NCBI GenBank assembly: GCA_964016885.1 | Contig: OZ024752.1 | Span: 36,704,001 to 36,768,000, forward strand | DNA from: Eledone cirrhosa | Lineage: Eukaryota | Direction of reading: 5' to 3' | DNA: 64,000 nucleotides | Notes under the pieces: generated by a model | Database searches by the model: none | Told to the model about the DNA's origin: nothing | Seen by the model: the letters and a program-made list of their open reading frames with translations, nothing else | Made by a program: the position numbers and the translations under genes | Part shown: positions 23,697 to 24,032 of the stretch, piece by piece | Numbering within the stretch: position 1 is the first letter of the stretch | Layout: the number at the start of each line of letters is the position of its first letter

Positions 23697-24032
23697 TATA
23701 AGATCAAAAGATGGTTAAAGGAGTTCCATGTATTTTATTATGCGCATTTCAAAAACAAACATCATCATGCAATAATATTTGTGTTTTCATCAGATAAAAC
23801 AGGAGAACATGATATGAAGGCTAAAAAACACTTGTGGATAGTGCAGTTTTAAATCAACATATGTTGATATGTTGATTTAAAACTGCACTATCCACAAGTG
23901 TTTTTTAGCCTTCATATCATGTTCTCCTGTTTTATCTGATGAAAACACAAATATTATTGCATGATGATGTTTGTTTTTGAAATGCGCATAATAAAATACA
24001 TGGAACTCCTTTAACCATCTTTTGATCTTATA
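23697..24032. mobile_element. Family D near-perfect fold-back with two back-to-back hammerheads (minus 23733-23799, plus 23930-23996)
   Basis: Arms of ~165 bp, centre aacatatgtt near 23860. Confidence 0.92.

What the first reader, a model, noticed from the sequence alone, without database searches (positions are those of the whole stretch)
23697..24032. Snap-back palindromes: the two arms were copied from each other
Seen: both arms of this family D copy share variants missing from the other D copies (ttttttagcc, gttctcct, gatgtttg, ctccttta versus ttttttaacc, gtcttcct, gatatttg, ctctttta at 22036-22197). The same holds for J at 60966-61162, A at 3679-3788 and G at 57030-57318. Inference: the nascent cDNA folds back and primes on itself during insertion, giving back-to-back ribozymes, so transcription of either strand yields a cleavable or hairpin RNA.
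Basis: partly seen in the sequence, partly recalled or inferred. Interest (0 to 1): 0.82.

Follow-up and report, generated by a model that had tools for sequence, protein, structure and literature searches.

The report
Twin-primed Penelope retrotransposon palindromes
The palindrome is a stub of a very abundant Penelope-like jumping gene, and its two halves look like two separate DNA copies of one RNA, each started from one side of the cut chromosome and joined in the middle, rather than one copy folding back on itself.

Summary
The palindrome is real: two 166-nt arms, identical, around a 4-nt spacer in a (TA)n tract. 'Family D' is the hammerhead-bearing terminal repeat (pLTR) of a Hydra-clade Penelope-like retrotransposon (801-aa RT plus GIY-YIG-like ORF); its core matches 8,281 places in the genome. 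Head-to-head insertions with a one-sided tail are published, as is a self-priming explanation.

The four 'shared variants' are subfamily markers, but across 60 insertions arms differ by 1.0% versus 4.9% between insertions, so both come from one template. Pure snap-back fails: 90 of 102 junctions pair one tailed with one tail-less arm; in 45 of 90 the tail-less arm reaches further 5', and in 16 the arms barely overlap, so neither could template the other.

Best model (0.7): both target strands prime reverse transcription on one RNA at two fixed start sites, both run off its 5' end, and the ends join by microhomology. Fold-back copying shows in a minority of loci and cannot be excluded at this one. 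No RNA data were available. Known architecture, sharper and testable mechanism.

The parts
23583..23606 (.). left (TA)n target tract
   Evidence: sequence
23604..23696 (-). element 'tail' (~92 nt, reference r3648-3739), present on this arm only; its outer end is the inferred outer RT start site
   Evidence: its 29-nt end motif has 5265+5284 exact matches in the genome
23697..23862 (-). tailed arm: pLTR from the inferred RNA 5' end (r3481) to about r3647
23747..23793 (-). hammerhead core (CUGAUGA...GAAA) of the left arm
   Evidence: motif scan
23863..23866 (.). junction spacer GTTG; equivalently an 8-nt tandem repeat ATGTTGAT at the self-complementary ATAT ends; recurs at 71 places in both polarities
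23867..24032 (+). tail-less arm: pLTR r3481 to about r3647; its outer end is the inferred inner RT start site
23936..23990 (+). type I hammerhead: CTGATGA, 11-bp helix II, GAAA, palindromic TGCGCA helix III; predicted cut after 23990
   Evidence: cut site placed by the recalled hammerhead consensus, cleavage not tested
24034..24057 (.). right (TA)n target tract
   Evidence: sequence
53090..53289 (.). D insertion with a full tail-less arm (53090-53256, -) joined to a tail-only arm (53256-53289, +, r3705-3738): the arms share no sequence
22033..22198 (+). solo tail-less D arm starting at r3481
3600..3789 (.). family A head-to-head insertion: tailed arm 3600-3732 (-), tail-less arm 3735-3789 (+)
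51697..51839 (.). family A insertion with a tail-only arm (51697-51776) joined to a tail-less arm (51785-51839)
60897..61164 (.). family J head-to-head insertion: tailed arm 60897-61061 (-), tail-less arm 61065-61164 (+)
60613..60803 (.). family J insertion: tail-less arm joined to a tail-only arm (60736-60803)
56990..57319 (.). family G head-to-head insertion: tailed arm (-) and tail-less arm (+)

Best explanation
Coupled twin priming on one RNA. (1) The Hydra-clade PLE protein (RT plus C-terminal GIY-YIG-like nuclease) cuts both strands of a (TA)n tract [target shown; double cut inferred from another PLE in vitro]. (2) Each freed 3' end primes its own cDNA on the same RNA: one at the end of the tail (r3739), one ~92 nt further in (r3647) [the two ends shown; priming inferred]. 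(3) The two cDNAs stop at their own points. When priming is on the pLTR at the 5' end of the transcript, both run off the same RNA 5' end (A3481, probably a capped start), giving equal arms as here; otherwise arms are unequal or do not overlap [lengths shown; run-off and cap inferred]. (4) The two cDNA 3' ends anneal by microhomology (here self-complementary ATAT), often after rounds of short templated extension, sometimes with fold-back of one end, and each is extended across the other arm [junction sequences shown; process inferred]. The arms match because they share a template, not because one is generally a copy of the other. The product is a dead pLTR stub whose read-through RNA would be a long hairpin with the ribozyme buried.
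For: 90 of 102 head-to-head junctions have exactly one tailed and one tail-less outer end (6 tailed/tailed, 1 tail-less/tail-less, 5 unresolved); an independent set of 50 loci on contigs C1-C15 gave 47 of 50; families A, J and G show the same in the window. Tail-less arm reaches >10 nt further 5' in 45, tailed arm in 14, equal in 31 of 90; among 70 pairs sampled by the tail motif alone, 35/10/25. 16 of 90 tailed arms are tail-only or overlap by at most 12 nt. In 14 pairs with a short tailed arm the other arm starts at r3477-3485, the native end, which argues against later central deletion. Inner ends at r3477-3485: 27 tailed and 34 tail-less arms of 90; an extra G precedes A3481 in 17 of 48 informative ends (p=0.0016 against an assumed 17% G). 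Arms share subfamily: 0.96% vs 4.94%; none of 10,000 permutations came near. Joints overlap by 1-11 nt in 34, carry 1-60 nt inserts in 39, are blunt in 6 of 90, 11 not classed; L078 alternates pieces of both ends. The window's asymmetric junction occurs with the tail on either side (31 vs 16). Raw Illumina reads hold strand-switching joints from tail to D. In vitro, an anole PLE cuts and extends both strands, starts RT at two sites that bound the tail, and is predicted to be a dimer (PMC11167929).
Against: At this locus the arms are equal, so run-off and fold-back cannot be told apart here. Mirrored non-reference inserts on both arms (L053, L148) and a triple inversion (L162) need arm-to-arm copying; the L053 duplication occurs on only 3 arms in the genome. 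6 of 21 deep pairs end within 40 nt of each other (0.8 expected): this fits a shared broken RNA end but equally fold-back. L038 is a two-tail-less pair with about 3 kb of mirrored flank. Junction polarity is biased 2:1 (p=0.04). 17 of 99 tail hits were not in a detected pair and 8 were in tailed/tailed pairs. The second RT must displace the first cDNA to make overlapping arms (inferred). In vitro, no strand difference in start site was seen, so the one-of-each coupling is not shown biochemically. One family, mostly the first 65 Mb of one contig, ends called by BLAST against one reference copy, three ends corrected by hand.
Confidence: 0.7

Rival explanations
1. Hybrid: two priming events set the two outer ends, but in equal-armed palindromes such as this one the inner part of one arm is made by fold-back of the other cDNA, which then anneals to the partner cDNA over long homology.
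For: Mirrored inserts at L053 and L148; 6 of 21 deep pairs coupled, with the tail-less arm the longer in the four that have an offset of 13-40 nt; 747 places carry a perfectly palindromic 28-nt centre; 2:1 polarity bias.
Against: The shared RNA 5' end already explains the main class of equal arms, since solo and unequal arms stop at the same base; zero-loop centres follow simply from ATAT/ATAT annealing of two ends.
Confidence: 0.15
2. Pure snap-back: one cDNA folds back, copies itself, and the second end is set by nuclease resolution at the tail boundary; unequal arms come from later deletion at the palindrome centre.
For: Arms share one template; L038 shows that fold-back-like events occur; Craig et al. 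suggest the tail results from EN-mediated resolution (PMC8557442).
Against: 45 of 90 tail-less arms hold sequence absent from the tailed arm, 16 barely overlap it, and 14 keep the native 5' end at the joint; mirrored host flank at only 1 of 95 junctions tested.
Confidence: 0.06
3. Self-priming on an antisense transcript (Arkhipova et al. 2013).
For: Proposed for head-to-head PLE palindromes in rotifers (PMC3846280).
Against: It does not predict one tailed plus one tail-less end, non-overlapping arms, or stops at a sense-strand 5' end with an extra G; sense RNA is the template in vitro as I read it.
Confidence: 0.04
4. Independent neighbouring insertions made alike by later gene conversion.
For: Inverted repeats can convert (general knowledge, recalled); 14 sites in 10 of 60 pairs are shared by both arms and by no other sampled insertion.
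Against: Tight palindromes are not more alike than arms over 600 nt apart (1.05%, 36 pairs vs 0.84%, 24 pairs; p=0.96); 48 variants are private to one arm; chance adjacency cannot give 90 of 102 one-tail pairs.
Confidence: 0.03
5. Assembly or library artefact (chimeric fold-back reads).
For: The arms here are 100% identical; this exact locus was not seen in raw reads.
Against: Flanks are not mirrored and one arm has the tail; sister palindromes have diverged arms; strand-switching joints occur in raw reads of two runs.
Confidence: 0.02

Closest known systems
EN+ Penelope-like element insertions with an inverted 5'-truncated copy and a one-sided tail (Arkhipova et al. 2013, PMC3846280; Craig et al. 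2021, PMC8557442)
   Same: Head-to-head pLTRs, palindromic junction, tail on one end, partial tandems, (TA)n target, hammerhead in the pLTR.
   Different: Tail here is ~92 nt rather than 30-40; those papers explain the form by antisense self-priming or EN-mediated resolution and call it unresolved; the passages I read do not count tail/no-tail pairing or arm lengths.
Hydra clade of PLEs (Craig et al. 2021, section 11 read whole)
   Same: RW(K) motif, DKT, CxCX5C linker, CxxC and CxH around the conserved E and N, C-terminal EN, hammerhead, (TA)n insertion.
   Different: Unit is ~3.7 kb with a long 3' UTR (theirs generally under 3 kb); RWT in this copy; no tree was built.
PAc (anole Poseidon) in vitro transposition (Frangieh et al. 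2024, PMC11167929)
   Same: Two RT start sites that bound the tail; both target strands cut and extended; AT-rich target; predicted dimer.
   Different: They saw no strand preference for start site and leave the steps after priming open; the one-of-each coupling and central joining are inferred here from genomic products of a different clade.
L1 twin priming (Ostertag and Kazazian 2001; seen only as described in PMC2246262)
   Same: Both sides of the break prime reverse transcription of two regions of one RNA, giving an inverted segment.
   Different: In L1 (recalled) it is a minority outcome with a variable internal site and non-overlapping pieces; here the inner site is fixed, it is the majority outcome, and the outer cDNA often reads through the inner one, which makes palindromes.

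Membership tests
EN+ Penelope-like element | single ORF with telomerase-like RT | tested here: met
   801-aa ORF in L031 with YRDDG, invariant in 26 homologs; model pLDDT 83.7, top three fold hits are TERT. Pfam gave no relevant hit.
EN+ Penelope-like element | GIY-YIG endonuclease | tested here: inconclusive
   C-terminal model's best hits are T4 EndoII, Hpy188I and I-TevI (GIY-YIG family, membership recalled), but E is 0.04 or weaker; Y..YxG, R, E, N conserved.
EN+ Penelope-like element | pLTRs in partial tandems and inverted copies | tested here: met
   Tandems with the tail joined to the next unit (L047, L048, L060); 102 inverted junctions.
EN+ Penelope-like element | [quoted passage not shown] | tested here: met
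   90 of 102 and 47 of 50.
EN+ Penelope-like element | hammerhead motif in the pLTR | tested here: met
   Core differs at 16 of 1551 positions vs 451 of 10716 elsewhere; helix II paired in 137-141 of 141 arms. Rfam gathering search did not report it.
EN+ Penelope-like element | hammerhead self-cleavage | not testable with these tools
   No RNA assay.
Hydra clade | DKT, RWK-like, CxCX5C, CxxC and CxH motifs; C-terminal EN | tested here: met
   SDKT, RRLRWT, CNCRIKNKC, CNLC, CLH in L031; conserved in homologs; definitions.
Hydra clade | (TA)n insertion | tested here: met
Hydra clade | placement in an RT phylogeny | not tested
Snap-back (fold-back) product | second arm contained in the first | tested here: not met
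   Violated in 45 of 90 pairs; compatible at this locus.
Snap-back (fold-back) product | same outer end on both arms, mirrored flank | tested here: not met
   Not at this locus; 1 of 95 junctions (L038); a second high score, L149, is further element sequence.
Twin-priming product | two distinct priming sites on one template | tested here: met
   (genomic footprint only).
Twin-priming product | staggered double cut with target-site duplication | not testable with these tools
   Hidden in (TA)n; no empty allele available.
MITE or other palindrome that moves as a unit | fixed internal structure shared by descent | tested here: not met
   Junctions vary; the same junction appears in many haplotypes and both polarities.

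The most novel reading that the evidence does not exclude
Coupled twin priming is the default integration mode of endonuclease-bearing Penelope-like elements: one RNP places two RT active sites on the two start sites of one pLTR, each primed by one strand of the cut, so the tail, the inverted copy and the palindromes are all one footprint, and second-strand synthesis is primed by the partner cDNA.
Probability: 0.55. Interest if true: 0.72.

Novelty: new member of a known kind. Interest (0 to 1): 0.5.

Why it matters
Craig et al. 2021 name the formation of PLE tandem/inverted structures as an open problem, and Frangieh et al. 2024 leave the steps after priming unvalidated. The tail/no-tail pairing and arm-length counts give a specific, falsifiable model that links their two start sites and double-strand extension to the genomic products, and that can be tested in their existing in vitro system. 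It also means one active family has seeded at least hundreds of ~170-bp perfect hairpins (747 places with one exact centre alone) across this genome, possible sources of double-stranded RNA or instability; that consequence is untested.

Tried and rejected
DNA search of the own genome with the D arm returned nothing because common words are skipped; exact patterns were used instead. A gapped pattern to count all close pairs could not be run, so no genome-wide count of palindromes beyond two exact centres. Rfam found no hammerhead, only U6 and a tRNA-like hit. Pfam and PDB sequence searches gave nothing useful for the ORF. The isolated hammerhead region folds no better than shuffles (z about 0). 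Sequencing runs: no RNA holder listed, so expression, RNA 5' end, siRNAs and editing are untested. The DNA runs laid are RAD-seq of an organism not known to be that of G000; joints begin at 1-3 places, and the symmetric r3481 junction was not listed. An excess of arms ending at the hammerhead cut site (about r3605) was looked for: a few cases (L103, L151, L061, L117), not tested statistically. A pile-up of tailed arms just at the inner start site (7 ends at r3636-3643) may only reflect AT microhomology. I suspected a sequence difference between run-off and read-through arms at r3487; it was private to L031. Paper searches that did not surface this model in their listings; the library lacks most subscription papers, and I did not open the supplements of PMC11167929 or PMC8557442, which may bear on novelty. 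Look-ups of earlier findings by place, words and sequence were empty.

Full report
Observation. The arms at 23697-23862 and 23867-24032 are exact reverse complements over 166 nt around GTTG, inside (TA)n. The two other D copies in the window are 95.8% and 94.6% alike. J, A and G arms differ at 2 of 98, 0 of 55 and 3 of 133 sites.

What D is. A 32-nt core of D has 4135+4146 exact matches in the 3.0-Gb genome, many as minus-then-plus pairs 0.1-6 kb apart. Between such pairs lie ORF pieces, and L031 holds an intact 801-aa ORF. Its model resembles telomerase RT; the C-terminal domain's best, weak, hits are GIY-YIG nucleases. It carries the motifs listed for the Hydra clade of Penelope-like elements (PMC8557442 section 11). 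D is the 3' pLTR with a type I hammerhead whose core and helix II are conserved. One named homolog is from a cephalopod; the window looks octopus-like to me (recalled). Below, r-numbers count along L031:1310-5048: D is r3481-3647 and the tail r3648-3739.

Sample. I fetched the surroundings of the first 100 listed core matches and 99 of the first 100 listed tail matches, all in the first 65 Mb of contig C1, merged them into 119 segments plus the window and called arm ends by BLAST against L031. This gave 102 head-to-head junctions. Three inner ends (L063, L122, L142) were corrected by hand from the junction sequences. A second sample is 50 of the 71 places that share the window's exact junction.

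One template. In the 60 of 90 pairs whose arms share at least 100 nt of D, arms differ by 0.96% against 4.94% between insertions; with gaps counted, 1.84% against a permutation mean of 5.75% and minimum of 4.66%. The second sample gave 1.1% against 5.2%. Tight palindromes are no more alike than distant arms (1.05% vs 0.84%, p=0.96), so later conversion is not needed.

Not one arm from the other. 90 of 102 junctions have one tailed and one tail-less outer end; 6 are tailed/tailed (three of them because one arm runs on through a tandem), 1 is tail-less on both sides, 5 are unresolved. The second sample gave 47 of 50. Under fold-back the tailed arm must come first and contain the other. Yet the tail-less arm reaches more than 10 nt further 5' in 45 pairs, the tailed arm in 14, and 31 are equal; for the 70 pairs found through the tail motif the split is 35/10/25, with 17 of 99 tail hits in no detected pair. 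In 16 pairs the tailed arm is only tail or overlaps by at most 12 nt, one of them in the window at 53090-53289; families A (51697-51839) and J (60613-60803) show the same. Later deletion is an unlikely rescue, since 14 short-tailed pairs keep the partner's end at r3477-3485. What fold-back should leave is seen once: L038 has two tail-less arms and about 3 kb of mirrored host flank at 99.3%, 1 of 95 junctions tested.

Why many arms are equal. 27 tailed and 34 tail-less arms of 90 end at r3477-3485, whatever the partner does. Partial tandems show that transcripts include an upstream pLTR and tail, so priming there would run off the RNA 5' end after 166 or about 259 nt. A3481 sits in TCATAT, like an initiator (recalled), and an extra G precedes it in 17 of 48 informative ends (p=0.0016 against 17%), as when RT copies a cap (recalled from L1). 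Both cDNAs then end in self-complementary ATAT. Simple annealing gives the perfect centre found at 747 places; one extra round of extension gives the window's junction, found at 71 places, in 40 haplotypes among 50 and with the tail on the left in 31 and on the right in 16. Joints show 1-11 nt overlaps in 34, inserts of 1-60 nt in 39, blunt ends in 6 of 90, 11 not classed.

L053 carries the same 19-nt duplication on both arms, and only 3 arms in the genome have it; L148 has a mirrored insert and L162 a triple inversion. Among 21 pairs that both end deep in the element, 6 end within 40 nt of each other against 0.8 by permutation; a shared broken RNA end or fold-back of the tail-less arm both fit. 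Fold-back therefore probably contributes at some inner joints, and this locus cannot exclude it, but it cannot supply the tail on the other arm.

Artefact and function. Raw RAD-seq reads of two runs show loose (TA)n ends at both outer positions and strand-switching joints from the tail into D (1361 to 1522, 1373 to 1600, 1436 to 1566 on L027); the organism is not known to be that of G000 and this locus itself was not seen. A transcript through the palindrome folds into a single ~170-bp hairpin at -295 kcal/mol, which buries the hammerhead; animal PLE hammerheads cleave poorly alone (PMC4209133 passages). Hairpin RNA is plausible, cleavage much less so; no RNA data were available.

Literature. 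PMC3846280 (passages and Discussion read) describes head-to-head pLTR palindromes and the tail and proposes antisense self-priming. PMC8557442 (passages, sections 11 and 15) describes the inverted copy and one-sided tail and calls their formation unresolved. PMC11167929 (parts 1-2 of 4) shows both strands cut and extended and two RT start sites bounding the tail. Twin priming I saw only as summarised in PMC2246262. Passages of bioRxiv 10.64898/2026.07.22.740005 and PMC13282606 did not bear on the mechanism. I did not find the coupled model in these texts or in the listings; supplements and non-open papers were not seen.

Verdict. A real feature and a new member of a known kind. The stated snap-back mechanism is at most a minority route. 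The value lies in the one-tail rule and the arm-length counts, which point to coupled twin priming on a single RNA (0.7) and can be tested in an existing in vitro system. Interest 0.5.

Noticed in passing
window 34665-34914, 52824-53068, 56990-57319, 18956-19165: Family G has a tRNA-like 5' part (Rfam tRNA at 34760-34830) yet inserts head-to-head in (TA)n with a one-sided tail: a candidate tRNA-headed SINE-like element mobilised by a Penelope-like protein.
   Followed up: partly
window 28938-29009: U6 snRNA copy (minus strand) lacking its 5' stem, which is replaced by (TA)n.
   Followed up: no
window 1-64000: 31 CTGA.GA...GAAA motif hits on both strands, in several repeat families, not all checked as hammerheads.
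   Followed up: partly
L038 (G000:C1 about 35310900-35320600): Two tail-less arms with about 3 kb of mirrored host flank at 99.3%: a fold-back inverted duplication centred on a PLE insertion, or an assembly artefact.
   Followed up: partly
L161 and L053: The same 19-nt slip-back duplication at the inferred RNA 5' end, on one arm in L161 (joined to a ~25-nt tail-only arm) and on both arms in L053.
   Followed up: yes
L046:790-3019: ORF fragments of a second, GC-rich Penelope-like element (DKG motif, GIY-YIG-like stretch) directly beside D copies.
   Followed up: no
window 6119-6799: Three family A palindromes in a row; the middle one (6354-6453) has two tail-less arms that match the neighbours on each side, suggesting a local duplication or recombination.
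   Followed up: no
L103, L151, L061, L117: Arms whose inner ends lie at r3603-3610, next to the predicted hammerhead cut (r3604/3605): possible traces of cleaved RNA used as template.
   Followed up: partly
window 37779-38043 and 39040-39304: Inverted pair of 265 nt at 98%, 996 nt apart, one arm with a hammerhead-like motif; probably another head-to-head insertion.
   Followed up: no
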